This document shows positions 30,840 to 42,582 of a DNA stretch of 64,000 nt, in pieces (position 1 is the first letter of the stretch; each line of letters begins with the position of its first letter). The notes under the pieces are model-generated. The model was given only the letters and a program-made list of their open reading frames with translations, was not told the DNA's origin and made no database searches. Both the position numbers and the translations under genes were made by a program. This DNA comes from Methylotenera sp. (GTDB lineage: Bacteria; Pseudomonadota; Gammaproteobacteria; Burkholderiales; Methylophilaceae), in assembly GCA_031379885.1 (NCBI GenBank), contig JANNFN010000181.1, positions 1,605-65,604 of the forward strand. The letters are read 5' to 3'.

Positions 30840-32108
30840 ATGAAAAAGTATCTAATTTTAATTTGCTTGGTTTTTCTTACACCTTCATGCGCTAAACAAA
30901 ATGTAAAGCCTGTGCAAATTGGCGCACAAAAATGTGATTGCGGGCAACCAAGTAAACCCATTGATGCACCATCAGTCCAATTGCCAGATACGTCGAAATC
31001 CAATGTGGATATCAAGCCTATTCCGTCTGTAATCATGCCTGATTATGCATTTTTAAAATCAGCTAATTGGAGCGATATTGAAGGTTTTACCGATGATGAT
31101 TTGGAATCGGCTTGGCCAGCTTGGCTTAAGAGTTGCAGTACCTTAGTTAACAAGCCGCAGTGGCAAGTCGCATGTGCTGCTACGAAAGTGCTTGATAAGC
31201 CAAACAAACAAGCAATTCAAACTTATTTTGCGCAATATTTTAATGTGTATAGTGCTACGAATTCGGATGGATCAGATACGGGCCTAATTACTGGTTATTA
31301 CGAACCTTTACTTAAAGGCAGTCGTACAAAGTCTAGCCAATATCCAAACCCAATATACAAGCAGCCCATAGATTTAATTACGGTTGAGCTAAGTGAGATA
31401 TACCCAGAACTGAAAAATAAGCGCGTGCGCGGTAAGTTGGTGAGTAATAAGCAGGGTGCTCAAAAGTTAGTACCTTATATGTCACGAGCAGAAATAGAGG
31501 CAATTCCCTCGCCACTAACAGGTAATGAGTTAGTGTGGATTAACGATATCATTGATGTGTTTTTCTTACAAATTCAAGGCTCTGGATTAGTAAAACTGGA
31601 TAATGGTGAGGAGGTTCATGTGGGTTATGCTGACCAAAATGGCCAAGCATATAACTCTATCGGCCGTATTTTAATTGAACGTGGTGAATTAACTGCTGAT
31701 CAAGCATCAATGCAAGGCATTAAAAATTGGGCGCGTAACAATTTAGCTAAATTACGTGACTTACTGAATAGTAATCCTAGTTATGTATTTTTTAGAGAAC
31801 TGCCCGCAGGTCTTCCAGGGCCACTTGGAGCGCTTGGCGTACCAATCACCGCACAACGTAGCGTTGCAATAGATCCAAAATACATTCCATTAGGCGCGCC
31901 AATATTTCTATCAACGACGCAACCTAATAGCACTGACCCTCTTAAACGCCTGATGCTAGCTCAAGACACAGGAGGCGCCATTAAAGGCGGGGTGCGGGCA
32001 GATTTCTTTTGGGGCGCGGGTGATAGCGCAGGAAAACAAGCAGGTGCCATGAAGCAAATTGGAAAGATTTGGGTGTTATTGCCAAAAGACTTTCAGTTCC
32101 CCAAATAA
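30840..32108 (+). CDS. mltA: membrane-bound lytic murein transglycosylase A
   Basis: Lipobox-like TPSC; TGYYEP, FFLQIQGSG, QDTGGAIKG..RADFFWG motifs. Confidence 0.93.
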   Translation: MKKYLILICLVFLTPSCAKQNVKPVQIGAQKCDCGQPSKPIDAPSVQLPDTSKSNVDIKPIPSVIMPDYAFLKSANWSDIEGFTDDDLESAWPAWLKSCSTLVNKPQWQVACAATKVLDKPNKQAIQTYFAQYFNVYSATNSDGSDTGLITGYYEPLLKGSRTKSSQYPNPIYKQPIDLITVELSEIYPELKNKRVRGKLVSNKQGAQKLVPYMSRAEIEAIPSPLTGNELVWINDIIDVFFLQIQGSGLVKLDNGEEVHVGYADQNGQAYNSIGRILIERGELTADQASMQGIKNWARNNLAKLRDLLNSNPSYVFFRELPAGLPGPLGALGVPITAQRSVAIDPKYIPLGAPIFLSTTQPNSTDPLKRLMLAQDTGGAIKGGVRADFFWGAGDSAGKQAGAMKQIGKIWVLLPKDFQFPK

Positions 32109-32120
32109 TTTTAAGCAAAT

Positions 32121-32147
32121 AAAAAGGGCACATAGAGTGCCCTTTTT
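32121..32147. terminator. bidirectional terminator between mltA and pqqA
   Basis: AAAAAGGGCACATAGAGTGCCCTTTTT. Confidence 0.85.
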
Positions 32148-32164
32148 AATGAATAAGAATTAAC

Positions 32165-32236
32165 TTATTTATTCATAACGTACATTGTAACTTCGAAACC
32201 GAAACGCATTTCAGTAGCAGCTGGCTTTGTCCACAT
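32165..32236 (-). CDS. pqqA: PQQ precursor peptide
   Basis: Hand translation MWTKPAATEMRFGFEVTMYVMNK* with the E-x-x-x-Y core; SD AAGGAG. Confidence 0.95.
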   Translation of the reverse strand: MWTKPAATEMRFGFEVTMYVMNK

Positions 32237-32366
32237 AATAATTCTCCTTGGTTTAAAATTCGCTAGGACTGCTTTCACAAACCCATAACGTAAAATGAAT
32301 AATACGCGCGACCAAAATTTGTATACTATTAAAACTACTTAAATAAGCCTCATGATTTTCATTAGA

Positions 32367-34613
32367 TTATTTTTTGGCATTAAATTTTTTAAACAATTTC
32401 TTAAGTCCTTTTCTACCAATGCGACGTTTTAGCCATACTTTACTATCGTATAGATAAAATAATAGACGGTATTGCCAAACGAATTTGCGTCCAGTAAGCC
32501 CTAAATAAATTTGCATAAAACGCTCGCGACCCAGCCAATCTAACTTGTGACAGGCGCGAGTGAGGTCGGCAACTCTATAGATTACAGGGAAAGGGGTATG
32601 GTTTACCGTGCGAAGTCGAGCAGTGTCAATTAATGAAAACTCCAGCTTATTTTCTTTTAGATTAACTAAAATATTACCACCCGAAAAATCTCTAAAGTAA
32701 ATTAGGCGACTGTGCATGTTATTACAAAATAATGCAAACTGCCTATAAATCTCTTCAGCATCCATTCCTAAATAGGTAGTCTGGCCAGCAGTAAATGCAG
32801 AAAAAATCTGACCAATATTGGTATCGGCCTGCACAAATTCACAAATATAAAAATTCTGCTTCAATGTATGATCATTAATTTTTTCAAAATAAGCGATAGG
32901 TCGGGCAGTACTAATGCCACGCCGCATTAGTTCCATCGCACCATTCCAACTACGTTTTGCCTTGCTATGCTTGTAACGGTCTAAAAAAGCCTTATGCGCA
33001 TACATTTTTATAGGTTGTTTGACTGTTAGCTGGTGGGTATTATTGCGTGGATCCTCTATCGCCCAAATCGCGTTGCGCGCATGACGTAAAGCGCTATCTT
33101 TAGTTGGGCTATTTAGCTGGTTCGGATGTAGTCTTTGAGCGATTATTTTTGCTTCATCTGCATCTTTAGCGAGTATCAAACCTTGCCAACCATCTTCAGA
33201 AAAAATGAAATATTGCGCATTTTTAATATGGGCATGAATAGTAAATTTTTGCGCAGAATCAATTGATTGCTGAATCAAGTTTTTATCTATTTGATCCCAG
33301 ATCAAATAGATAGGAGATTCAGTAATAAAATCTAGATTAGTTGTTAAAGTAGCACCGCTGCGGCCCAGTATCTGCGCGGTCCGTAGAGCATGATTTTGGT
33401 AAATATCATTTAATAATATAGCTTTTCCATTAATCGACCAGGCTGCATAAATATGTTTTGCACCTTGCATAAAGTGGTGAATTTCTAGGCCATTACTACT
33501 AGCGATTGCACCAATATATTGTGCACCTTGAATCATTTTTGCTACTGTTTTAACTGCATTAAAACTTGGATATGGCTGGTAGTTTGCTAGTGCGCCATCT
33601 GCACTTTTGTAGTGAGCAACGCGTTCTAAATCGGGATAATCTGATTCGCTTATTCCATCGTCGATCAAGCCTTCACGTTGGCATATTAATGCTCCCCAAT
33701 TGACTTGCTGCAGTGCCCCCGAGGCAGCTAATAACAAAAAATAGCGCGCTGCATAGTCTGCTTGTTTTTCTGTACCATCGGGCAGTCGACGCTGAATACG
33801 GTAAATCGCCCAAAAAGCGACGGGTGAAATAAGTTTTTCTATGCCAAAATCTTTTCCAATTTTTTGTAAAATGCGTGCTTTTTTAATTAAATTATATTTA
33901 AAAATACTCGCCCAGCGATACTTAAAAACACGATGATCATAGCACTCTGGCTCGCTTACGCGCTCAGAAAATAAGTTGTTGCTATGAATATCTGGTAATA
34001 GATTTTTTTGTTTAAAAGTCTTGAGTAAGCTAATGTTATAGAACGGCTCAAAATCTTGAACATTAGGCCCAGCTAGAGGGATATTACGCGCTTTAATTTC
34101 GTTAAATGCAATATTCCAGGCGGCTAAAAAACCTTCGTAACTATAGCCAGCCCAGCGTTTCCGGTTAATGGTTGTGCCTATTTCAATGAGTTTAATTTTA
34201 TTACCAAAAGTATTTAATACGCTTTGTAAAAAATCTTGCCATATTGTTTGTTCTGCTTGGCTTTGCATGTTTTTTGCTGCAGTCACTGGTTGAATAATAT
34301 GCAAGGTTACCGCAAAATTATTTGCAATGAGCGCATGCAAAAACCGTGCATTAAAGCCAGCTAAATCACCATAGCTAAAGTCTAAACGCACCTGCTTTAT
34401 GCCAAGCGCGTTTAATTGTGAGATTATGTAAGCATCAGTTGCAGGGTCAGGTGCGGACGCTACGCATACGCCAATGAAATCGTTGGGAATCGTATGAGTA
34501 TTTGGCGGTAAATGCCCTTTTTTGATGAATAAGCCACCACGGAAAATATAGCTTAAACCATCGTAAACTACCTGTTTAGTGAGCATTGACGGCTGTTTAA
34601 TGACAGAGGTCAT
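32367..34613 (-). CDS. fusion of a glycoside-hydrolase-like TIM barrel and an LPS/sugar kinase (Kdo/WaaP/InaA-like)
   Basis: C-terminal KAKRSW...RDFSGGNIL...LIDT kinase motifs; N-terminal VRLD / IEIGTT / LAGP barrel pattern; ATGA overlap with the upstream gene. Confidence 0.7.
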   Translation of the reverse strand: MTSVIKQPSMLTKQVVYDGLSYIFRGGLFIKKGHLPPNTHTIPNDFIGVCVASAPDPATDAYIISQLNALGIKQVRLDFSYGDLAGFNARFLHALIANNFAVTLHIIQPVTAAKNMQSQAEQTIWQDFLQSVLNTFGNKIKLIEIGTTINRKRWAGYSYEGFLAAWNIAFNEIKARNIPLAGPNVQDFEPFYNISLLKTFKQKNLLPDIHSNNLFSERVSEPECYDHRVFKYRWASIFKYNLIKKARILQKIGKDFGIEKLISPVAFWAIYRIQRRLPDGTEKQADYAARYFLLLAASGALQQVNWGALICQREGLIDDGISESDYPDLERVAHYKSADGALANYQPYPSFNAVKTVAKMIQGAQYIGAIASSNGLEIHHFMQGAKHIYAAWSINGKAILLNDIYQNHALRTAQILGRSGATLTTNLDFITESPIYLIWDQIDKNLIQQSIDSAQKFTIHAHIKNAQYFIFSEDGWQGLILAKDADEAKIIAQRLHPNQLNSPTKDSALRHARNAIWAIEDPRNNTHQLTVKQPIKMYAHKAFLDRYKHSKAKRSWNGAMELMRRGISTARPIAYFEKINDHTLKQNFYICEFVQADTNIGQIFSAFTAGQTTYLGMDAEEIYRQFALFCNNMHSRLIYFRDFSGGNILVNLKENKLEFSLIDTARLRTVNHTPFPVIYRVADLTRACHKLDWLGRERFMQIYLGLTGRKFVWQYRLLFYLYDSKVWLKRRIGRKGLKKLFKKFNAKK

Positions 34614-36586
34614 TGTGGAAGACGGTAGCGTTGCTCACTATAAAGCAAAGCTGGTAAAAGTGAATTTGCAAGCGAGCGTTGCTCAAGTTGTTTAGCATTT
34701 TCTGGAGGTGCGGCTTCGTTGAGATGCTTATTTTTCTGGTCATAAATGCCAAAAGCTGCAGGTTTACCTTCTCGCAAAATAACGACATTATTGCTGTTAG
34801 CTGTTTGTTCCATCCACGCAAAATTAGCGTTATATTGCATCATGGCTCGACCATAATAATCTGCAGGTTCGTTCGATAAGTCACGCCCCGTCATTGGGTG
34901 CTGCGCACTAATGCCCATTAGCGATAACAGCGTAACGGGCAAATCAATTTGGCTCACAATTGTGGTTAATTTTCTAGGCTTGATATCTGCGCCTAAAATG
35001 AGGCCAGGAATATGAAAATGTTCAATTGGCACTAGGCTATCACCACGTACTCGAATATCATGATCGGCCACAATTAAGAATAGGGTGTCTTTCCAATAAG
35101 GACTTTTTTGCGCCTTTTCAAAAAACTTGCCAATGGCATAATCGGCATATTTTACCGCGTTGTTATCAGTCGCTTTGGGTTGCTCATAAAGATCAATACG
35201 TCCATCGGGAAACTCAAATGGTGCATGATTAGATGAAGAAAAAGCTAATGTAAAAAATGGTTTACCGCTGGCATGATGTTTCAACAGTTGTTCATGAGTT
35301 TTGTTGAGTAAGTCTTCATCTGATGCGCCCCAGCTACCAACAAATATTGGGTTTTTAAAATCTTTTTCATCGGTAATTTGATTGAAGCCATTACCTAGAA
35401 AAAATCCACGCATATTGTCAAAATGTGACTCTCCTCCGTAAATAAATTCGGAGTTATAGCCTCGTTTAGATAGCAAAGCAGCAAGGGTAAAAAAGTTTTT
35501 TTGACTTAATGAAAGCTTAACCGTACTTTCAGAAGGTGTGGGTTGAAAACCTGCAGTTACAGCCTCTATGCCACGCACTGAGCGTGTTCCAGTTGCATAG
35601 AGTTGCTCTAGCCAAATACCTTGTTCTTTGAGTTTTTCTAAGTTGGGTGTTACAGGAACGCCACCAAGAGATTCTACAAAAGTTGCGCCTAAACTTTCCT
35701 GCAGAATAATCACTAAATTAAGTGGCTTGTCGCGTTTGGCGCTAGGGATAAGCGTTTTAAGTGTAGGAATGTCGGTGTCTTTTGCACCTGTGAGCTTAAA
35801 TATTTCAGCTCTATCCATTTTGCCGTAAATTTGGCTTGATTTGCTTTCGTGCTGCAGCTCATAAATGGCGTAAAAAACTGAATAGCTAGAATTAAGTACC
35901 AGACTATTCACCATGCTATCCTGCGTGAGGGCAAATAAGGCAGGGTTCGCTGGCCTGTGACCAGTAGTAGAGCGAATACCGAAAGCAATTAGCACTAAAA
36001 TTAGCGGCCAAATAAGGCTTAATTTTTTGTTAGACCAAGTGGGTGAACTCATTAGCCATGGTTGCATAAACTGGCGCATTGTCCAAATAGCCAATAGTGT
36101 AAAGCCGATGCTGGCAAAAATATCGACCTTAAAGCCGCGCCAAAGCATTCCCAATACCTCATTGGGATATTTTAAATACTCTATAAAAATGCGATTGGGT
36201 CTTACATCATATTCGGCTATAAAGCCAGGCGTGGCCGCCTCTAAAAACACCAGTAATACAATTGCCGAAATAACCCAAATGTAAGTGAACTTTCTCCATG
36301 CATTAAAAAAGTGCTTAGTAGCTAAAATTGGCGCTAACAACACTGGGATGATGCTGAGTAAACAGAGTTGAATAATATCGACGCGAATGCCTTGTAACAA
36401 AATTTCTGCTAATTTCCCTGTGGCGTTCACACGGTCTAGTTTCCATAACACTAGCCCTAGTCGTGAGGCCGAGAGTATAACTAAGCCTAGAAAAATCATG
36501 GCAACCAATGGCGCGTAGGGGCCAAATTTTTTGCTCACCTGCCAAAAAGTTTGGTGCCATTTTTTAAATAGACTTGAAAAAAGCAT
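34610..36586 (-). CDS. LTA-synthase-family membrane sulfatase/phosphotransferase
   Basis: 5 N-terminal TMs; ILQES, GTRSVRG (catalytic Thr), SNHAPF and VADH motifs. Confidence 0.9.
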   Translation of the reverse strand: MLFSSLFKKWHQTFWQVSKKFGPYAPLVAMIFLGLVILSASRLGLVLWKLDRVNATGKLAEILLQGIRVDIIQLCLLSIIPVLLAPILATKHFFNAWRKFTYIWVISAIVLLVFLEAATPGFIAEYDVRPNRIFIEYLKYPNEVLGMLWRGFKVDIFASIGFTLLAIWTMRQFMQPWLMSSPTWSNKKLSLIWPLILVLIAFGIRSTTGHRPANPALFALTQDSMVNSLVLNSSYSVFYAIYELQHESKSSQIYGKMDRAEIFKLTGAKDTDIPTLKTLIPSAKRDKPLNLVIILQESLGATFVESLGGVPVTPNLEKLKEQGIWLEQLYATGTRSVRGIEAVTAGFQPTPSESTVKLSLSQKNFFTLAALLSKRGYNSEFIYGGESHFDNMRGFFLGNGFNQITDEKDFKNPIFVGSWGASDEDLLNKTHEQLLKHHASGKPFFTLAFSSSNHAPFEFPDGRIDLYEQPKATDNNAVKYADYAIGKFFEKAQKSPYWKDTLFLIVADHDIRVRGDSLVPIEHFHIPGLILGADIKPRKLTTIVSQIDLPVTLLSLMGISAQHPMTGRDLSNEPADYYGRAMMQYNANFAWMEQTANSNNVVILREGKPAAFGIYDQKNKHLNEAAPPENAKQLEQRSLANSLLPALLYSEQRYRLPQ

Positions 36587-36644
36587 GAAGTAATGACTTT
36601 AGAAAACAAAACGCTATTATAAAGGTAACGAGCTAGCTTTTGGC

Positions 36645-37829
36645 CTAGTTTTGTTTGAGTCGCTTCGCTGCCAAAATAACGATAGAGATTAAAATAATGT
36701 TTCCAAAAACAAAAGCAGTGGTAATAGCAGGCACATTATTTTTTTCCATTAAAACATAAAGCCCGACTAAAACCATCATACAAAAGTTTTCAAAAAAGTT
36801 TTGCACCGCTACTGCATTGCCAGCACCTACAGTTTCGTGCCCACGTTCTTGTAATAGTGCGTTAAGCGGAACAACGTAAAAGCCACCAGCCATACCAATC
36901 AATACCAGCAAGGCAGTAGCGATGTATAAATTGGCGGTATGGGCGAAGAGCATAATGAATACTCCGATTAACAGCCCAGCAGGTAGTACGCGATTGATGT
37001 TTTTGAGGGTAATAAATTTTGCGGCTAGCACGGCACCAACGGCGATACCGATTGCGAGTGTACCGCTTAGGTTGGCAGGCATGCTTATGTCTGAAATGCT
37101 TAAGGCAACTGGCACCCAAGCAACTAATAGCAAACGTAAGGTCGAACCTGTACCCCAAAATATGCTGGAACCAATGAGTGAAAAACGTGCATCTTTGTTT
37201 AACGATAAAACTTTAAGCGCGTCAAAAAATTCTTTGGCGAGTTTGATAGGTTGTAGTTTTGTATCTGGCCTTGCCACGGCTAGGCGTGGGATGAAGGTGT
37301 TGGCAATAGCTGCTAAAAAGTAACATCCGCAAACGGCCAATAAAGCGATTTGTACAGAGATGCTTGCCAGTTTTCCGCCCAATATAGCCCCAATCAATAT
37401 TGCCACAATTGTCGAGCCTTCAATCAAGCTATTGGCTTTTACTAACTTATCCACGCTAACCAATTCACTTAAAATTCCATATTTAGCTGGTGAATAAGCT
37501 GCAGCTCCTATTCCAACTAAGCCATAAGCGATGAGTGGATTGAGCCCCATCAGCATGGTGATTGCACCAAGTAATTTAATGCTGTTAGCAATTAACATCA
37601 CGCGACCTTTAGGAAAACCATCCGCAAATGGCCCAACAAAAGGTGCAAGTAAAATAAATGCCAGCACAAAAAATTCTTGTAGCATGGGGATTTGCCAATC
37701 AGCTGCTTGTTGCGATTTTAACAACGCAATCGCGGCAAAAAGTAATGCGTTATCGGCCAATGCTGATATGAACTGAGCGATTGATACTGCAAGCATGCCG
37801 CGCGAAAGTAGGTTTTGCTTATTGTGCAA
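36645..37829 (-). CDS. lplT: lysophospholipid transporter
   Basis: AQFISALADNALLF, PAKYGIL and VPLNALLQERG motifs. Confidence 0.92.
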   Translation of the reverse strand: MHNKQNLLSRGMLAVSIAQFISALADNALLFAAIALLKSQQAADWQIPMLQEFFVLAFILLAPFVGPFADGFPKGRVMLIANSIKLLGAITMLMGLNPLIAYGLVGIGAAAYSPAKYGILSELVSVDKLVKANSLIEGSTIVAILIGAILGGKLASISVQIALLAVCGCYFLAAIANTFIPRLAVARPDTKLQPIKLAKEFFDALKVLSLNKDARFSLIGSSIFWGTGSTLRLLLVAWVPVALSISDISMPANLSGTLAIGIAVGAVLAAKFITLKNINRVLPAGLLIGVFIMLFAHTANLYIATALLVLIGMAGGFYVVPLNALLQERGHETVGAGNAVAVQNFFENFCMMVLVGLYVLMEKNNVPAITTAFVFGNIILISIVILAAKRLKQN

Positions 37830-38652
37830 TCGGCGCTCTATCTTGTGCTAAATGGCGTCGCATCCAGTTGTTGCGATAGACAAACAAATTGTCATCCACA
37901 TGACCCACATTGGGCACCCATTCAATATCTGTGTTTATATTAGCTTTGTTAAAAAGTGCTTTTGCGCGACTAGGTCGAATCAATGTATCGTTTAAGCCAT
38001 GCATCATGTGAACATGACCTTTTATTTTTTTTATCCATTGGTAGGCGGGTAACGGGTAACGCATGATAAAGCTTACGGGTAAGAGATTTGAAATATTCTC
38101 TTTTGCAACATTGAGTAAACTGTCATAAGCAGCGACTAGGTACACATCATGTTGCGGGTGCTGGCTAGCAGTATAAATGGCAAGCCCAGACCCAATTGAG
38201 TAGCCAAAAATAACGATTTTTTCAGGGCTCTCTTTTTTGCTAAGCCACAGGTAGGCAGCTTCAGAGTCAGCTAATAAATCAGTTTGGCTAAATAGACATG
38301 AGCTAGAACGTCCATAGCTTGGGTAATCCCAGGTCATTAGGTTGTAACCTAAATTGTGAAAGGCATAAGCATAGTCATTTATACTGGCAATACTTTCGCC
38401 ATTGCCATGGAACATCATAATGGTACCTTTGGCTTGTTTAATCTTCCAAATTACTACGTGAATTTTGCCACAACTGCTGTCCACAAGGCCTTCTAAAGCG
38501 CTATCCCCTGCAGTGGGCTGCCAATTTAAAGGTACAGCTTGAGTTAAATAGGAAGGAAATAGCATACGAGTTTGTAAAAAATATAATGCTAGACAGCCAA
38601 TGCAATAAATTATTAGTGCTAAAAATGCAAATTTTTTAATGGGTAACAGCAA
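37819..38652 (-). CDS. membrane-anchored alpha/beta hydrolase
   Basis: FHGNGE, DYPSYG.S, GYSIG nucleophile motif, HG..D and H. Confidence 0.85.
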   Translation of the reverse strand: MLLPIKKFAFLALIIYCIGCLALYFLQTRMLFPSYLTQAVPLNWQPTAGDSALEGLVDSSCGKIHVVIWKIKQAKGTIMMFHGNGESIASINDYAYAFHNLGYNLMTWDYPSYGRSSSCLFSQTDLLADSEAAYLWLSKKESPEKIVIFGYSIGSGLAIYTASQHPQHDVYLVAAYDSLLNVAKENISNLLPVSFIMRYPLPAYQWIKKIKGHVHMMHGLNDTLIRPSRAKALFNKANINTDIEWVPNVGHVDDNLFVYRNNWMRRHLAQDRAPIAQ

Positions 38653-38655
38653 ATT

Positions 38656-40788
38656 TTAGGCCGCTTCGGCCATTTGCTTCAAGGTAACATAATCTGTTTT
38701 CCCTGAGCCTAATAGCGGAATTTCTTCAATGACAATAATTTTTCTGGCCACTGCAAGTTCTGGAAGGCCGAGGTTTTTAGCAACAATTTGTAGATCTTCC
38801 CGCTTAAGTTTTTTATCGCAGGTGAATAAAATAATACTTTCACCACGTTGCGCATTGCTAATGGAGCTAGCAGCATGCAGGTGATCTGGGGCAGCTGTGT
38901 TGGCAATATGCTCTACTACTTCTAGTGACACCATTTCGCCAGCCACTTTAGCGAAGCGTTTTACCCGACCTTTAATGTGAATATAGTTTTGCGCATCAAC
39001 TTCAACAATATCACCCGTGTTGTACCAACCTTCTATTGGTGGATTTAGTTTGCCAGGGTTATCAAATAGAAAGTAGCCAAGCATCACGTTTTCACCGCGG
39101 ACATGCAATAAGCCGCCATTTGTAATGCCAGGAACTGCTTCCAGTTTGTGTTCCATGCCCGATACTAATTGGCCTACGCTTCCAATTAAATTGGCTGTAG
39201 GCGAGTTGATGGCAACCGCAGGTGCGCACTCAGTGGTGCCGTAGCCCTCTAAAATTTGGATACCAAATTTATCGGAATAGATTTTGCGCACTTCATCATT
39301 CAATTTTTCGGCGCCAGCAACAACGATTCTGAGCTTATTAAAATCGTGCGGATGCGCAAATTTGGCGTAATTTCCTAAGAAAGTGCTAGTAGCAAAAAAC
39401 ACGGTGCAGCCTTTGTTATAGATGAGTTCAGGAATTACTTTATATTGCAGTGGCGAAGGGAATATATTGATTTTTATGCCATTCAGTATTGGTACGAGCG
39501 ATCCAGTAAATCCAAAGGAGTGAAAGACGGGTAATACCATCATGAATTTATCTGTGGAATTAAAATCAATAACCGACATAATTTGCGCTACATTGGCCAA
39601 AATACTTTTATGTGAATGCACCACGCCTTTGGGTTTGCCTTCCGAGCCAGAAGTAAACAACACCACCGCTGGTTGTTCAGGCGAATTTGTTTCCATCGCT
39701 AAGCGCGGATAGTGCAAGGCATAGCCCATCAGCCAAGCGCGATCCAGCATACCAAATTGAGCACGTAAATCTTCCAAGTAAACAACGTTAAGATTTTGTA
39801 AACTGGCAACTACATTTTCAAGTTCTGCGGCTTCTATAAATTTGTGTGATGTGATAATGGTTTTTATATTGGCGGCGATACAGGCATTTTGCATGCCTGC
39901 CGTACCAGAGGTGTAATTAAGCATGGCTGGTACACGGTTAAATGCACTCATACCCAAAATAAGCGCTAGTGTATTGGTAATGTTGGGCATCAACACGCCA
40001 ACTACTTCGTTTTGGAGGCTGACTTTAGAGGCTATTCGACCTAACGCAAGGCTCTTTTTTAACAAGTCGTGATAGGTTTCTTCGACTTCGTTCATATCCT
40101 CAATGAGTTTATAGTCGCCACCATATTTATCCACTGCATCTAAAAAAGCTTCGAATAGGGTGCGACTTTTTTGTGCTTGAAACAACATTTTTTGCATGAC
40201 ACTGCGCATGCCTTCGCCAGCGATACGGCGGCGTTGCTTGCCAGTAGGAAAGCTACGATTCGTCGCTTTTGGCATCACAATATTAGTGGTGGGTAATACA
40301 GTAAGCGTGACTCGTGGAAATAAGCGCTTAAGCTGGTGACGCGATATGCGTCCAAAATATGACTCTCCTGCACCATCAATACGCACAGGTAAAACAGTTG
40401 CACCTGTCTTGCCCGCAATAAACCCAGGGCCGTCATACACTTTTTGTATTTCTCCCGTTGCGGTGGCGCGCCCTTCTGGGAAAACCACGACATTTTCGCC
40501 AGATTCAAGCAATTTAATCACTTTTTTCATGGCGATTGGATTAGCAGTATCTACTTCTACATGGCGCGTTAAACGTAAAGCTTGCCTAAATGACCATTTT
40601 TTAAGGGTAGAAGTGTGTACAACAAAGGTGGCTTTTTTAGGTAAAAATATGCAGAGCAATAAACCATCTAAAAATGATTCGTGATTGGCGACAATCAATA
40701 GCCCGTCTTCGGCAGGTACGTTTTCTAAGCCGCGCACTTCAACGCGAAATAGTATTTTACTAATAAAACGTAGGATGCTTGTGAACAT
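38656..40788 (-). CDS. aas: bifunctional 2-acyl-GPE acyltransferase / acyl-ACP synthetase
   Basis: PlsC motifs NHESFLD and FPEGR; AMP-binding FTSGSEGKPKG and GYGTTE. Confidence 0.93.
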   Translation of the reverse strand: MFTSILRFISKILFRVEVRGLENVPAEDGLLIVANHESFLDGLLLCIFLPKKATFVVHTSTLKKWSFRQALRLTRHVEVDTANPIAMKKVIKLLESGENVVVFPEGRATATGEIQKVYDGPGFIAGKTGATVLPVRIDGAGESYFGRISRHQLKRLFPRVTLTVLPTTNIVMPKATNRSFPTGKQRRRIAGEGMRSVMQKMLFQAQKSRTLFEAFLDAVDKYGGDYKLIEDMNEVEETYHDLLKKSLALGRIASKVSLQNEVVGVLMPNITNTLALILGMSAFNRVPAMLNYTSGTAGMQNACIAANIKTIITSHKFIEAAELENVVASLQNLNVVYLEDLRAQFGMLDRAWLMGYALHYPRLAMETNSPEQPAVVLFTSGSEGKPKGVVHSHKSILANVAQIMSVIDFNSTDKFMMVLPVFHSFGFTGSLVPILNGIKINIFPSPLQYKVIPELIYNKGCTVFFATSTFLGNYAKFAHPHDFNKLRIVVAGAEKLNDEVRKIYSDKFGIQILEGYGTTECAPAVAINSPTANLIGSVGQLVSGMEHKLEAVPGITNGGLLHVRGENVMLGYFLFDNPGKLNPPIEGWYNTGDIVEVDAQNYIHIKGRVKRFAKVAGEMVSLEVVEHIANTAAPDHLHAASSISNAQRGESIILFTCDKKLKREDLQIVAKNLGLPELAVARKIIVIEEIPLLGSGKTDYVTLKQMAEAA

Positions 40789-41008
40789 AGTTACTCCCCT
40801 AGATTTCGTTTTTATTTAGATATTATTTTTTATATTATTGTTCATATTTTATATATGCTAATAGTACACGCTGACACTGCTCGCCGCCTAGAGTAACGAT
40901 AAAATCAATGATATTTGTCCGTTCGTTAGGAGTGCTATTTATATAATTTTACGCCTTGTGAGGTAATATCCATGCGGCTTAAAGGACATATAAAATCACG
41001 CTACAAAT

Positions 41009-41037
41009 AAAAACGGACGCCAAAGCGTCCGTTTTTA
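41009..41037. terminator. terminator after amtB
   Basis: AAAAACGGACGCCAAAGCGTCCGTTTTT. Confidence 0.8.
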
Positions 41038-41055
41038 TTACTGCTAACTTACTGA

Positions 41056-42582
41056 TTACATATGATAAGCACGTTCGCCATGCTCTGTAGTATCTAAACC
41101 TTCGCGTTCAACTTCTTCACTTACGCGTAGACCAATTAATACATCTACAATTTTGTAAGCAAGGAAAGCCACAACGCCAGACCATACTAGTGTTGTACCT
41201 ACACCCCACGCTTGAGCAGTCATTTGCGCAGCCATATCATAAGGTGCAACCGCGTTTGCAACATAGTCGTAAACACCTGTTCCACCTAGAGCTGGATTCA
41301 CTAAAATACCCGTACTTAGCGCACCAAAAATACCACCAATGCAGTGCACACCAAATACGTCTAGTGAGTCATCGTAACCGATCATAGACTTAACTTTGGT
41401 TACAAAAGTGAAGCAAAGTGGCGAAACAAGCAAGCCTAGTACGATAGCACCCATAGGGCCGATGTAACCACAAGCCGGTGTAACAGCAACTAAACCAGCA
41501 ATGGCACCAGAAGCTGCACCTAACATGGAAGGCTTACCTTTGAAGAACCATTCAGTAAACATCCAAGCTGTGGCAGCAGCACAAGTTGCAAGTAAAGTAT
41601 TCGCGAATACCAAAGCTGCAAAACCAGTCGCTTCAAGGTTAGAACCTACGTTAAAACCAAACCAACCCACCCATAGTAAAGCAGCACCAACCATTGTAAG
41701 CGTTACGCTGTGTGGTGCCATTGCTTCTTTACCAAAGCCTATACGTTTGCCTAATACTAATGCACCTACTAAGCCCGCAATACCTGCATTAATATGCACT
41801 ACAGTGCCACCAGCAAAGTCTAATGCACCTTTTTGCCAAATGAAACCGGCTGTTGCAGAAGCGGCTGTTGCAGCATCAGCAGTAGTATAAGCATCTGGAC
41901 CTGCCCAGTACCAAACCATATGTGCGATTGGCAAATATGAAAACGTAAACCATAAAATCATAAAAAACAGAATGGCAGAAAATTTCATACGCTCGGCAAA
42001 AGCACCCACAATCAAAGCAGGAGTAATCACCGCAAAGGTAAGTTGGAAGCACATATAAATATATTCAGGGATGACAACGCCCTTGCTGAAAGTAGCAACA
42101 TTTGAATCAGGCGTAATTCCGCTTAAAAATGCACGACCAAATCCACCAAAAAACGCATTACCTTCGGTAAAGGCAATGCTGTAGCCATACAGCGCCCATA
42201 AAACCCCTAATACGCAGGTGATCATAAATGTTTGCATTAATATAGAGAGCATATTTTTTTGACGTGCCATACCACCATAAAATAAACCCAAGCCCGGTAC
42301 ACACATCATTAACACCAGTACTGTAGCAACGATCATCCAAGCGGTATCACCCTTATTTGGAACAGGCGCTGGAGCTGCGGCTGCCTCAGCAGGTGTAGCT
42401 TCTGCTGGCGCTGCGGTGGTAACAGCATCATCTACTGCCGTCGCTGCTTCTGCAACTGCTTCAACTGTCGCAGTTGCTGCTTCAGTAGTCGCGGTTGCCA
42501 TATCATCAGCAAAACTTAAATTACTAGTAAACCCAAAACCAACTAGGGCAACTAACGATAATACAGATAAAAATTTCTTCAT
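41056..42582 (-). CDS. amtB: ammonium transporter
   Basis: DFAGGTVVH, WFGFN and DDSLDVFGVH motifs. Confidence 0.97.
   Translation of the reverse strand: MKKFLSVLSLVALVGFGFTSNLSFADDMATATTEAATATVEAVAEAATAVDDAVTTAAPAEATPAEAAAAPAPVPNKGDTAWMIVATVLVLMMCVPGLGLFYGGMARQKNMLSILMQTFMITCVLGVLWALYGYSIAFTEGNAFFGGFGRAFLSGITPDSNVATFSKGVVIPEYIYMCFQLTFAVITPALIVGAFAERMKFSAILFFMILWFTFSYLPIAHMVWYWAGPDAYTTADAATAASATAGFIWQKGALDFAGGTVVHINAGIAGLVGALVLGKRIGFGKEAMAPHSVTLTMVGAALLWVGWFGFNVGSNLEATGFAALVFANTLLATCAAATAWMFTEWFFKGKPSMLGAASGAIAGLVAVTPACGYIGPMGAIVLGLLVSPLCFTFVTKVKSMIGYDDSLDVFGVHCIGGIFGALSTGILVNPALGGTGVYDYVANAVAPYDMAAQMTAQAWGVGTTLVWSGVVAFLAYKIVDVLIGLRVSEEVEREGLDTTEHGERAYHM

What the first reader, a model, noticed from the sequence alone, without database searches (positions are those of the whole stretch)
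32367..34613. Pseudo-glycosidase fused to an LPS-type kinase and translationally coupled to an LTA-synthase-family gene
Seen: the N-terminal ~450 aa follow a clan GH-A barrel pattern, but the acid/base position reads IEIGTTIN where active enzymes have [WG]NEPN, and the expected nucleophile region (LISPVAFW) has no Glu. The C-terminus is a Kdo/WaaP-like kinase with an atypical catalytic loop (YFRDFSGGNIL). The start overlaps the upstream stop (ATGA). Inference: a glycan-binding dead hydrolase that presents an envelope polysaccharide or glycolipid to the kinase, working with the phosphotransferase in an undescribed envelope-modification step.
Basis: partly seen in the sequence, partly recalled or inferred. 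Interest (0 to 1): 0.55.

Follow-up and report, generated by a model that had tools for sequence, protein, structure and literature searches.

The report
Dead-glycosidase kinase with LtaS-like partner
A methylotroph gene fuses a sugar-binding barrel, derived from a PslG/GH39-type glycosidase that has lost its catalytic glutamates, to an intact WaaP-like kinase; it travels with a periplasm-facing LtaS-type transferase, and the unstudied pair most likely decorates lipopolysaccharide or another envelope glycan.

Summary

- **Lost catalytic residues:** the column that aligns with the PslG nucleophile E276 is Val265 here and is never acidic in 43 fused relatives. The acid/base site reads T147-T148.
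- **Not simply "dead":** E144 and E223 are invariant, so a non-canonical activity is not excluded.
- **Domain link:** separate barrel and kinase genes lie side by side in two metagenomic contigs.
- **ATGA overlap:** the overlap with the upstream LtaS-family gene is real.
- **Adjacency:** the LtaS-family gene lies directly upstream in only 29 of 78 related loci.
- **Co-occurrence:** in 151 Methylophilaceae genomes the two genes co-occur almost perfectly (79 both, 2 kinase only, 0 transferase only), including about 20 genomes where they are unlinked.

Elsewhere the gene sits in LPS-core clusters. The best reading is an envelope-glycan kinase, probably acting on LPS core, that works upstream of the transferase as WaaP does for EptC. 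The substrate is inferred, not shown.

The scan found the same module earlier in another Methylotenera genome (e1-5134896). I rate it a new variant of a known kind, of moderate interest.

The parts
32367..34613 (-). Whole gene (P0001, 748 aa): a GH39-like pseudo-glycosidase barrel, a beta-sandwich and a Kdo/WaaP-family kinase. No signal peptide or TM segment.
   Evidence: maximum 19-aa Kyte-Doolittle hydropathy 1.3
33579..34496 (-). (beta/alpha)8 barrel, aa 40-345. Strands: b1 47-51, b2 74-79, b3 101-106, b4 142-145, b5 180-186, b6 209-213, b7 260-266, b8 303-308.
34170..34175 (-). T147-T148, at the end of strand b4 where clan GH-A enzymes carry the Asn-Glu acid/base. Never acidic in 43 fused or 24 N-domain-only relatives.
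33819..33821 (-). V265, in the column that aligns with the PslG nucleophile E276. The 43 fused relatives read Y17 H16 S4 V2 A2 Q1 C1. Six distant standalone relatives carry Glu here in an 'ITE' motif.
33168..33569 (-). Beta-sandwich domain, aa 349-482, as found after the barrel in GH39, GH30 and GH79 enzymes.
   Evidence: aligned model range reaches ~440
32370..33101 (-). Kdo/WaaP-family kinase domain, aa 505-748, with K532, E561, D642, N647 and D663. The last 30 residues form a strongly basic tail (12 K/R).
32673..32690 (-). Catalytic loop D642-F-S-G-G-N647. It aligns with the D..N of HRDLKPEN in protein kinases.
34610..36586 (-). Partner gene (P0002, 658 aa). It has five N-terminal hydrophobic segments and a periplasmic sulfatase-fold domain of the LtaS/OpgB type. 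The closest solved relative is the uncharacterised VP1736 (3LXQ, E 7e-145). The LQES and ADHD metal-ligand motifs are kept.
34610..34613 (-). ATGA overlap: the stop codon of P0002 overlaps the start codon of P0001.
36645..40788 (-). Upstream same-strand genes: aas (38656-40788), an alpha/beta hydrolase (37819-38652) and lplT (36645-37829). They are tightly spaced and may be co-transcribed. This neighbourhood is seen only in part of Methylotenera and is not part of the conserved module.

Best explanation
P0001 is a cytoplasmic, probably membrane-peripheral sugar kinase of the Kdo/WaaP family. Substrate recognition has been handed to a covalently attached GH39/PslG-derived barrel. That barrel keeps much of the clan GH-A pocket (R76 on b2, H105 on b3, H210 on b6, W306 on b8, plus invariant E144, N150, R151, W154, E223, R290) but has lost both hydrolytic glutamates. 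The barrel would bind a sugar or oligosaccharide of an envelope glycoconjugate while that molecule is still on the inner leaflet of the cytoplasmic membrane. The kinase would then add a phosphate to it. The most likely substrate is the lipid A-core stage of LPS. After export, the periplasm-facing LtaS-family enzyme P0002 (VP1736 type) would modify the same molecule. It may transfer a phospholipid head group, such as phosphoglycerol or a similar group, onto or beside that phosphate. E. coli EptC does this on the heptose phosphate installed by WaaP.

Shown: the folds, the loss of canonical hydrolase residues, the intact kinase motifs, cytoplasmic versus periplasmic placement, the barrel-kinase association (fused or adjacent), and the kinase-P0002 co-inheritance.

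Inferred: sugar binding by the barrel, the identity of the glycan, the chemistry of P0002, and the order of action.
For: Fold:
- The family profile hits PslG at E 1.1e-6 and 5jvk at E 3.7e-6 by sequence.

Loss of catalysis:
- The profile motif 'iiTEtnW' aligns with PslG 'WSTEWGW', whose Glu is E276.
- P0001 has V265 there, and none of 43 fused relatives has Asp or Glu.
- The site at the end of b4 is T147-T148.

Kinase intact:
- PF06293 scores above its cut-off.
- FRDLSGGN...IDTG aligns with HRDLKPEN...IDFG.
- D663 is invariant and K532, D642 and N647 are nearly invariant in 43 relatives of 23-53% identity.

Barrel-kinase link:
- Most of the 253 50%-identity clusters that match the barrel are 730-800 aa fusions.
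- The standalone barrel P0160 is followed, with a 4-nt overlap, by a separate 279-aa Kdo kinase.
- P0174 has a divergent 270-aa Kdo kinase as its neighbour.

LPS link:
- In Methylobacillus flagellatus the gene overlaps a GT9 heptosyltransferase inside a cluster with two other Kdo-family kinases, a GT4 and an ArnT-like PMT_2.
- In Rhodocyclaceae it follows a small Kdo kinase beside a GT2, another Kdo-family kinase and an MsbA-like ABC transporter.
- 1.3-Mb streamlined genomes keep the pair as a bare two-gene module, with no extra glycan genes beside it.

P0002 link:
- The ATGA overlap.
- Co-occurrence in 151 Methylophilaceae genomes: 79 have both, 2 have the kinase only (both fragmented assemblies), 0 have P0002 only. 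About 20 of these genomes carry the genes on different contigs or far apart.
- In genus g18 the retained barrel remnant has lost both its upstream P0002 and its own 3' kinase domain. That needs two separate deletions.
- A paralogous LtaS-like domain is fused to a Kdo kinase in one 959-aa protein.

Precedent: WaaP followed by EptC (PMC6358824).
Against: - No substrate is identified, and in this window the gene is not in an LPS cluster.
- Adjacency to P0002 is limited to Methylotenera, most Methylobacillus and the streamlined genus g20 (29 of 78 loci).
- Methylophaga muralis has the kinase but no P0002 homologue at E 1e-10, so the kinase does not strictly need it.
- Where the two genes are adjacent, joint loss can be a single deletion, and related genomes are not independent samples.
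- E144 and E223 are invariant and E217 is always acidic (E37, D6 of 43). All three sit on the catalytic face of the barrel, so a non-canonical enzymatic activity is possible.
- The acid/base assignment rests on strand position and motif, not on a residue-level superposition.
- P0002 is far below the equivalog cut-offs for LtaS and OpgB, and its chemistry is unknown.
Confidence: 0.5

Rival explanations
1. The barrel is still an enzyme. It would use non-canonical residues (invariant E144 and E223, near-invariant D187, acidic E217) to cleave, transfer or isomerise a sugar, and its product would be passed to the kinase. The protein would then be bifunctional in the manner of fused TreS-maltokinase.
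For: - E144 and E223 are invariant in 43 fused relatives, and E223 is invariant even in the distant 'ITE' group.
- The catalytic-face loops are the most conserved parts of the domain.
- The distant standalone relatives keep the nucleophile Glu yet also lack the NEP acid/base. The ancestral family may therefore already have used an unusual acid/base.
- A GH-type barrel fused to a kinase with both domains active is known for TreS-Mak (PMC2885305).
Against: - The nucleophile column is variable (Y, H, S, V, A, Q, C) and never acidic in kinase-linked members. This pattern looks like relaxed selection on a lost catalytic residue.
- The PslG E165Q/E276Q variant is reported as inactive (10.1101/032714).
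- No spatial information shows E144 and E223 positioned as a catalytic pair.
Confidence: 0.15
2. The module acts on a molecule other than LPS, for example a membrane glycolipid or another exported glycan. The kinase would prime the molecule inside and the LtaS-like enzyme would add glycerophosphate outside. This chemistry would resemble Gram-positive lipoteichoic-acid synthesis or GacH-type decoration. In Methylotenera it could be tied to phospholipid turnover through the neighbouring lplT and aas.
For: - P0002 is LtaS/OpgB-type rather than EptA-type. Its best characterised PDB relatives are the LTA primase (E 3e-18) and an LTA synthase.
- In the window it follows aas, an alpha/beta hydrolase and lplT with small gaps.
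- Most loci with the fused kinase are not in LPS clusters.
Against: - lplT and aas are adjacent in only about a dozen Methylotenera-type loci.
- OpgG was not found in this 94%-complete genome, which argues against periplasmic glucans.
- Genomes of 1.3 Mb with the pair offer few glycans other than LPS and peptidoglycan.
- The only informative neighbourhoods elsewhere are LPS-core clusters.
Confidence: 0.2
3. The kinase domain phosphorylates a protein or acts as a regulator. The barrel would serve as a sugar sensor, and the pairing with P0002 would be regulatory or merely syntenic.
For: - The kinase profile scores slightly better against eukaryotic-type protein kinases (E 3e-4) than against WaaP (E 0.007) in the PDB.
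- Pseudoenzyme domains often serve as sensors (general knowledge).
Against: - The Ser/Thr-kinase Lys of HRDLKxxN is replaced by Ser in RDLSGGN.
- Pfam places the domain in the Kdo/WaaP family above the cut-off.
- Fused and adjacent partners elsewhere are LPS enzymes and LtaS-like transferases, not signalling proteins.
Confidence: 0.07

Closest known systems
PslG of Pseudomonas aeruginosa and Bacteroides cellulosilyticus GH39 (PDB 5BX9/9G17, 5JVK)
   Different: The PslG nucleophile E276 corresponds to V265 here, and the acid/base site is T147-T148. The protein has no signal peptide or membrane anchor, so it is cytoplasmic. It is fused to a kinase. It gets no Pfam GH39 hit.
WaaP/RfaP LPS core heptose(I) kinase (PDB 6DFL; Pfam PF06293), acting before EptC/CptA
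   Same: It belongs to the same Pfam family, scoring above the cut-off, and has intact catalytic motifs. It is cytoplasmic. In some lineages it is encoded in LPS-core clusters. It pairs with a periplasmic alkaline-phosphatase-superfamily transferase, as WaaP's product is the acceptor for EptC (PMC6358824).
   Different: It scores only 17.9 bits against the WaaP equivalog model, whose cut-off is 170. It carries a ~500-aa N-terminal glycosidase-like module that WaaP lacks. Its partner is LtaS/OpgB-type, not EptA-type. Its substrate is unknown.
LtaS/LtaP lipoteichoic acid synthases, OpgB, and the uncharacterised Vibrio parahaemolyticus VP1736 (PDB 3LXQ), compared with the partner P0002
   Same: P0002 has five N-terminal hydrophobic segments and an extracytoplasmic sulfatase-fold domain. 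The metal-ligand motifs align. Matches are E 7e-145 to VP1736 and E 3e-18 to LtaP.
   Different: The host is a Gram-negative bacterium without teichoic acids. P0002 scores far below the LtaS and OpgB equivalog cut-offs. OpgG was not found in the genome. P0002 is paired with a kinase.
Fused trehalose synthase-maltokinase (TreS-Mak/Pep2)
   Same: A glycoside-hydrolase-type TIM barrel is joined to a protein-kinase-like sugar kinase in one polypeptide in some organisms, and the two are encoded as adjacent genes in others (PMC2885305).
   Different: The TreS barrel is GH13 and catalytically active. Mak belongs to the aminoglycoside-phosphotransferase-like group. That pathway is cytoplasmic alpha-glucan metabolism. 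Here the barrel is GH39-like without the canonical catalytic residues, and the partner is an envelope enzyme.

Membership tests
Clan GH-A / GH39 glycoside hydrolases | (beta/alpha)8 barrel with a C-terminal beta-sandwich | tested here: met
Clan GH-A / GH39 glycoside hydrolases | Sequence homology to family members | tested here: inconclusive
   The family profile reaches PslG (E 1.1e-6) and 5jvk (E 3.7e-6) in the PDB. No GH Pfam model matches the single sequence at E <= 0.1.
Clan GH-A / GH39 glycoside hydrolases | Nucleophile Glu at the end of strand b7 | tested here: not met
   The column aligned with PslG E276 is V265 here. None of 43 fused relatives is acidic at this column.
Clan GH-A / GH39 glycoside hydrolases | Acid/base Glu (Asn-Glu motif) at the end of strand b4 | tested here: not met
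   Strand b4 is 142-145, followed by G146-T147-T148-I149. Columns 147 and 148 are never acidic in alignments A2 or A3. No residue-level superposition was available, so E144 inside the strand cannot be fully excluded as a substitute.
Kdo/WaaP kinase family (PF06293) | Profile score above the curated cut-off | tested here: met
   25.8 bits against a cut-off of 21.3, aa 521-668.
Kdo/WaaP kinase family (PF06293) | Protein-kinase-like catalytic residues (Lys, Glu, catalytic Asp, Asn, DFG-like Asp) | tested here: met
   K532, E561, D642, N647 and D663 are conserved in 43 relatives. The loop aligns to HRDLKPEN/DFG.
WaaP (heptose I kinase) equivalog | NCBIfam NF011703 score above its cut-off | tested here: not met
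   17.9 bits against a cut-off of 170. The genome has four other Kdo-family kinases, three of them on one contig.
WaaP-type LPS kinases | Phosphorylation of an LPS core sugar | not testable with these tools
   Only contextual support: LPS-core clusters in M. flagellatus and Rhodocyclaceae.
LtaS/OpgB-type transferases (partner P0002) | Multi-span N-terminus plus an extracytoplasmic sulfatase-fold domain with metal ligands | tested here: met
   PF00884 at E 2.6e-46. Five hydrophobic segments. LQES and ADHD align with LtaS metal ligands. The alignment around the nucleophile Thr is ambiguous.
LtaS or OpgB equivalogs (partner P0002) | NCBIfam equivalog score above the cut-off | tested here: not met
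   OpgB PRK12363 scores 70 against 572. LtaS NF053595 scores 41 against 970.
TreS-Mak type bifunctional fusions | Catalytically active GH domain feeding the kinase | tested here: not met
   The canonical nucleophile and acid/base are absent. This is an analogy of architecture only.

The most novel reading that the evidence does not exclude
A previously undescribed two-gene envelope-decoration module of Gram-negative bacteria, found mainly in methylotrophs and in some hydrocarbon degraders. A WaaP-like kinase, aimed by a glycosidase-derived pseudoenzyme domain, installs a phosphate on an LPS or glycan sugar from the cytoplasmic side. A VP1736-type LtaS-family enzyme then converts it in the periplasm into a phosphodiester substituent such as glycerophosphate. 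This would be the first case of a GH39-derived pseudo-glycosidase serving as the substrate-recognition domain of a kinase, and the first function for the VP1736 family.
Probability: 0.35. Interest if true: 0.65.

Novelty: new variant of a known kind. Interest (0 to 1): 0.52.

Why it matters
WaaP-family kinases and alkaline-phosphatase-superfamily transferases set the charge and permeability of the Gram-negative outer membrane. Here the kinase has acquired a whole glycosidase-derived domain, and it partners with an LtaS-type enzyme rather than an EptA-type one.

If the reading is right, four things follow:
- It gives a function to an unnamed barrel family of about 250 clusters at 50% identity, present in about 300 species genomes.
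- It gives a function to the structurally solved but uncharacterised VP1736 family.
- It adds a clear example of a glycosidase turned into a binding pseudoenzyme.
- It points to an unknown LPS or glycan substituent in abundant freshwater and marine methylotrophs, including streamlined OM43-like genomes that keep the pair despite genome reduction.

Tried and rejected
- **Single-sequence PDB searches:** the whole protein and the kinase domain gave nothing useful. Only profiles worked.
- **Pfam on distant standalone barrel proteins:** ten proteins, no family.
- **Osmoregulated periplasmic glucans as the target:** OpgG (PF04349) was not found in the own genome, which is 94% complete.
- **lplT/aas/hydrolase as part of the module:** rejected. 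They are adjacent only in a subset of Methylotenera loci. The ancestral locus in the family is glnK-amtB-P0002-P0001, convergent with mltA-apaG-thiG.
- **A link to peptidoglycan through the MltA neighbour:** rejected. The gene is convergent, and the synteny is confined to the family.
- **Kinase fusions among ~910-aa LtaS-like paralogues of genus g28:** I expected these to be kinase fusions. The one I checked is a PAP2::LtaS-like fusion. The Kdo-kinase::LtaS-like fusion exists in another genome.
- **Promoter and terminator scan of 32050-41100:** counts were not above shuffled controls. The one exception was the strong terminator after pqqA.
- **Literature searches:** nothing on VP1736/3LXQ, on WaaP with glycoside hydrolase or pseudoenzyme, or on PslG/GH39 with a kinase domain.
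- **Residue-level superposition on PslG:** not possible, because model coordinates are not exposed.
Full report
**What is there**

The minus-strand ORF at 32367-34613 encodes 748 residues. Its start codon overlaps the stop codon of the upstream 658-aa ORF (34610-36586) as ATGA. Further upstream on the same strand, with gaps of 58 nt or less, lie lplT, an alpha/beta hydrolase and aas. Beyond these are amtB and glnK. Downstream lie a 23-codon pqqA and a convergent mltA-apaG-thiG.

Close relatives of the protein come from Methylotenera and other Methylophilaceae. The protein has no hydrophobic segment (maximum 19-residue hydropathy 1.3) and ends in a tail with 12 Lys/Arg in 30 residues. I read it as cytoplasmic and possibly membrane-peripheral.

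**The N-terminal part**

Pfam and NCBIfam see nothing before residue 520. AlphaFold2 models show eight beta/alpha repeats (aa ~40-345) followed by a beta-sandwich (aa ~349-482). The full-length model has pLDDT 79.8 and pTM 0.81. The N-domain model has pLDDT 89.4 and pTM 0.88.

|---|---|---|---|
| 5jvk (GH39) | 31.3 | 2.9 A | 350 |
| PslG | 28.7 | 3.2 A | 354 |
| Next families | <=23.7 | | |

A sequence profile of 24 N-domain relatives reaches PslG at E 1.1e-6 and 5jvk at E 3.7e-6. This is therefore homology, not only a shared fold. A protein-language-model search also lands among unnamed 'glycosyl hydrolase' clusters and GH5/GH39/GH42 clusters.

**Catalytic residues**

PslG is inactivated by E165Q/E276Q (10.1101/032714). 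In the profile alignment, the family motif 'iiTEtnW' lies on PslG 'WSTEWGW'. The Glu of that motif is chain residue 250, which is E276 once the chain offset of 26 is applied.

In P0001 this column is V265 (I262-S263-P264-V265). In 43 fused relatives of 23-53% identity it reads Y17, H16, S4, V2, A2, Q1, C1, and is never acidic.

At the end of strand b4 (142-145), clan GH-A enzymes carry Asn-Glu. The family instead reads E-I-G-[STAN]-[TAV]-x-N-R-x-x-W, which is T147-T148 in P0001, with no acidic residue in any member.

Much of the clan GH-A pocket is kept: R76 on b2, H105 on b3, H210 on b6, W306 on b8. In the 43 fused relatives, R76 is invariant and W306 nearly so, H210 is kept in 38 and H105 in 28. 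The assignment of these positions to the GH-A signature rests on my knowledge of that clan. Also invariant are E144 (inside b4), N150, R151, W154, E223 (loop after b6) and R290. This is why I call the domain a pseudo-glycosidase by the canonical criteria but do not exclude another activity.

Six distant standalone relatives of 383-475 aa, several with an N-terminal hydrophobic segment, still carry 'ITE[TVM]NWP' at b7. They share the NR..W motif at b4 in place of NEP and have no kinase neighbour. They look like the still-active or ancestral branch.

**The C-terminal part**

PF06293 (Kdo/WaaP) matches aa 521-668 above its cut-off. A profile of 14 kinase domains aligns 'MHgRGvfFRDLSGGNILv...fsLIDtGRa' with 'MHkhniVHRDLKPENILL...IKIIDFGLS' of calcium-dependent protein kinases (E 3e-4). 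It also reaches WaaP 6DFL (E 0.007).

K532, E561, D642, N647 and D663 are conserved across the family. The catalytic loop is therefore orthodox for this superfamily. The genome has four other Kdo-family kinases, three of them on one contig.

**The two domains belong together**

A search of 1.84 billion cluster representatives with the barrel alone found only 253 clusters at E <= 1e-3. Most of the full-length ones are 730-800 aa, which is the fused form.

Among the standalone barrels:
- P0160 is followed, with a 4-nt overlap, by a separate 279-aa Kdo kinase.
- P0174 has a divergently transcribed 270-aa Kdo kinase next to it.

**The LtaS-family partner**

P0002 has five hydrophobic segments followed by a sulfatase-fold domain. 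It is very close to the uncharacterised Vibrio parahaemolyticus VP1736 structure 3LXQ (E 7e-145) and more distant from LTA primase and synthase. Its LQES and ADHD motifs align with LtaS metal ligands. It scores far below the LtaS and OpgB equivalog thresholds.

Of 78 related loci from species-representative genomes, 29 have its orthologue directly upstream. These are Methylotenera, most Methylobacillus and some unnamed Methylophilaceae. The Methylophaga, Porticoccus, Rhodocyclaceae and Alcanivorax loci do not.

In a sample of 151 Methylophilaceae genomes:
- 81 genomes have the fused gene and 79 have a P0002 orthologue (E < 1e-200).
- 79 genomes have both.
- 2 genomes have the kinase only, and both are fragmented assemblies.
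- 0 genomes have P0002 only.
- Within the mixed genera the same genomes carry both genes: g1 16 of 18, g20 8 of 18, g26 1 of 9, g28 9 of 18.

Two caveats apply. Where the genes are adjacent, one deletion removes both. Relatives are also not independent samples.

Three observations escape those caveats:
- In about 20 genomes (genera g3, g13, g19 and single genomes of g1, g8, g28) the two genes are on different contigs or far apart, and both are kept.
- In genus g18 (1.3-Mb genomes) the syntenic slot amtB-[...]-mltA holds only a 399-aa degenerate barrel. Both P0002 upstream and the kinase domain at the gene's own 3' end are gone, which needs two deletions.
- In an OM43-like genome a paralogous LtaS-like domain is fused to a Kdo-family kinase in one 959-aa protein. 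It is followed by a PAP2 phosphatase gene, a cytochrome b561 gene and then the P0002 orthologue.

Against an obligatory partnership, Methylophaga muralis has the fused kinase but no P0002 homologue at E 1e-10.

**What the target may be**

In Methylobacillus flagellatus the gene overlaps a GT9 heptosyltransferase gene. That gene lies in a cluster with two further Kdo-family kinases, a GT4 and an ArnT-like PMT_2. In Rhodocyclaceae the gene overlaps a small Kdo kinase next to a GT2, a ~500-aa Kdo-family kinase and an MsbA-like ABC transporter. These are LPS-core neighbourhoods.

In streamlined 1.3-Mb genomes the pair is a bare two-gene insert between amtB and mltA. The acceptor must therefore be made by core functions. 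OpgG was not found in the own genome.

The closest worked-out precedent is in E. coli. WaaP phosphorylates heptose I in the cytoplasm, and EptC then adds phosphoethanolamine to that phosphate in the periplasm (PMC6358824).

I therefore propose that the barrel binds a core or glycan sugar, the kinase phosphorylates it at the inner leaflet, and P0002 elaborates the same site after export. All of this is inference. I put the LPS version at roughly one half. The rivals are residual catalysis in the barrel (a TreS-Mak-like bifunctional enzyme, PMC2885305), a non-LPS glycolipid or glycan target, and a protein-kinase or regulatory role.

**Novelty**

Database names are only 'lipopolysaccharide kinase InaA family protein' or 'hypothetical'. 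No Pfam family covers the barrel, and full-text searches found no paper on this architecture or on VP1736.

The same module was noted earlier by this scan in another Methylotenera genome, with the same reading (e1-5134896). I reached mine before seeing that note.

- the split barrel/kinase gene pairs;
- the nucleophile-bearing sister group;
- the Kdo-kinase::LtaS-like and PAP2::LtaS-like fusions;
- the g18 remnant;
- the conserved amtB/mltA slot.

I classify it as a new variant of a known kind: a WaaP-family envelope kinase with a new recognition domain and a new type of partner. Interest is moderate.

Noticed in passing
window 32165-32236 (-), terminator 32120-32148: An unannotated 23-codon pqqA ([23 protein letters not shown]; Pfam PqqA E 6.4e-11) lies 130 nt downstream of the kinase gene. 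It is followed by a strong hairpin terminator shared with the convergent mltA. No pqqBCDE genes are next to it, so this is an orphan copy.
   Followed up: partly
L101:3222-6101 (+), genome of Methylophilales LSUCC0135: A 959-aa protein fuses a Kdo/WaaP kinase (aa 39-248) to an LtaS-like sulfatase domain (aa 584-853), a paralogue of P0002 at 36% identity. It is followed by a PAP2 phosphatase, cytochrome b561 and the P0002 orthologue. This looks like a second, related phosphate-remodelling module.
   Followed up: partly
L102:1517-4249 (+): In another Methylophilaceae genus the LtaS-like paralogue is fused to a PAP2 phosphatase domain instead (910 aa).
   Followed up: partly
L103:5175-6374 (+): Streamlined 1.3-Mb Methylophilaceae genomes (10 of 10 in one genus) keep an open ~400-aa remnant of the barrel in the syntenic amtB/mltA slot. 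The remnant lacks N150, R151, W154, W268 and strand b8, and it has no kinase domain and no P0002. It may be decaying, or it may have a new function.
   Followed up: partly
proteins P0252, P0264, P0270, P0272, P0273, P0275: A distant standalone branch of the barrel family (383-475 aa), several members with an N-terminal hydrophobic segment, keeps the 'ITE' nucleophile but has G-H-A-x-N-R instead of NEP at b4. It has no Pfam family and may be an unclassified glycoside hydrolase family with an unusual acid/base.
   Followed up: no
window 37819-38652 (-): An alpha/beta hydrolase with an N-terminal hydrophobic segment sits between aas and lplT, overlapping lplT by 11 nt. It could be a (lyso)phospholipase working with the lysophospholipid transporter and re-acylation pair.
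   Followed up: no
loci L006-L085: The fused gene occurs mainly in methylotrophs of different classes (Methylophilaceae, Methylophaga, Methyloversatilis), and also in Porticoccus, Alcanivorax, Azoarcus and one Pontiellaceae MAG. This suggests horizontal spread among bacteria that share a habitat.
   Followed up: no
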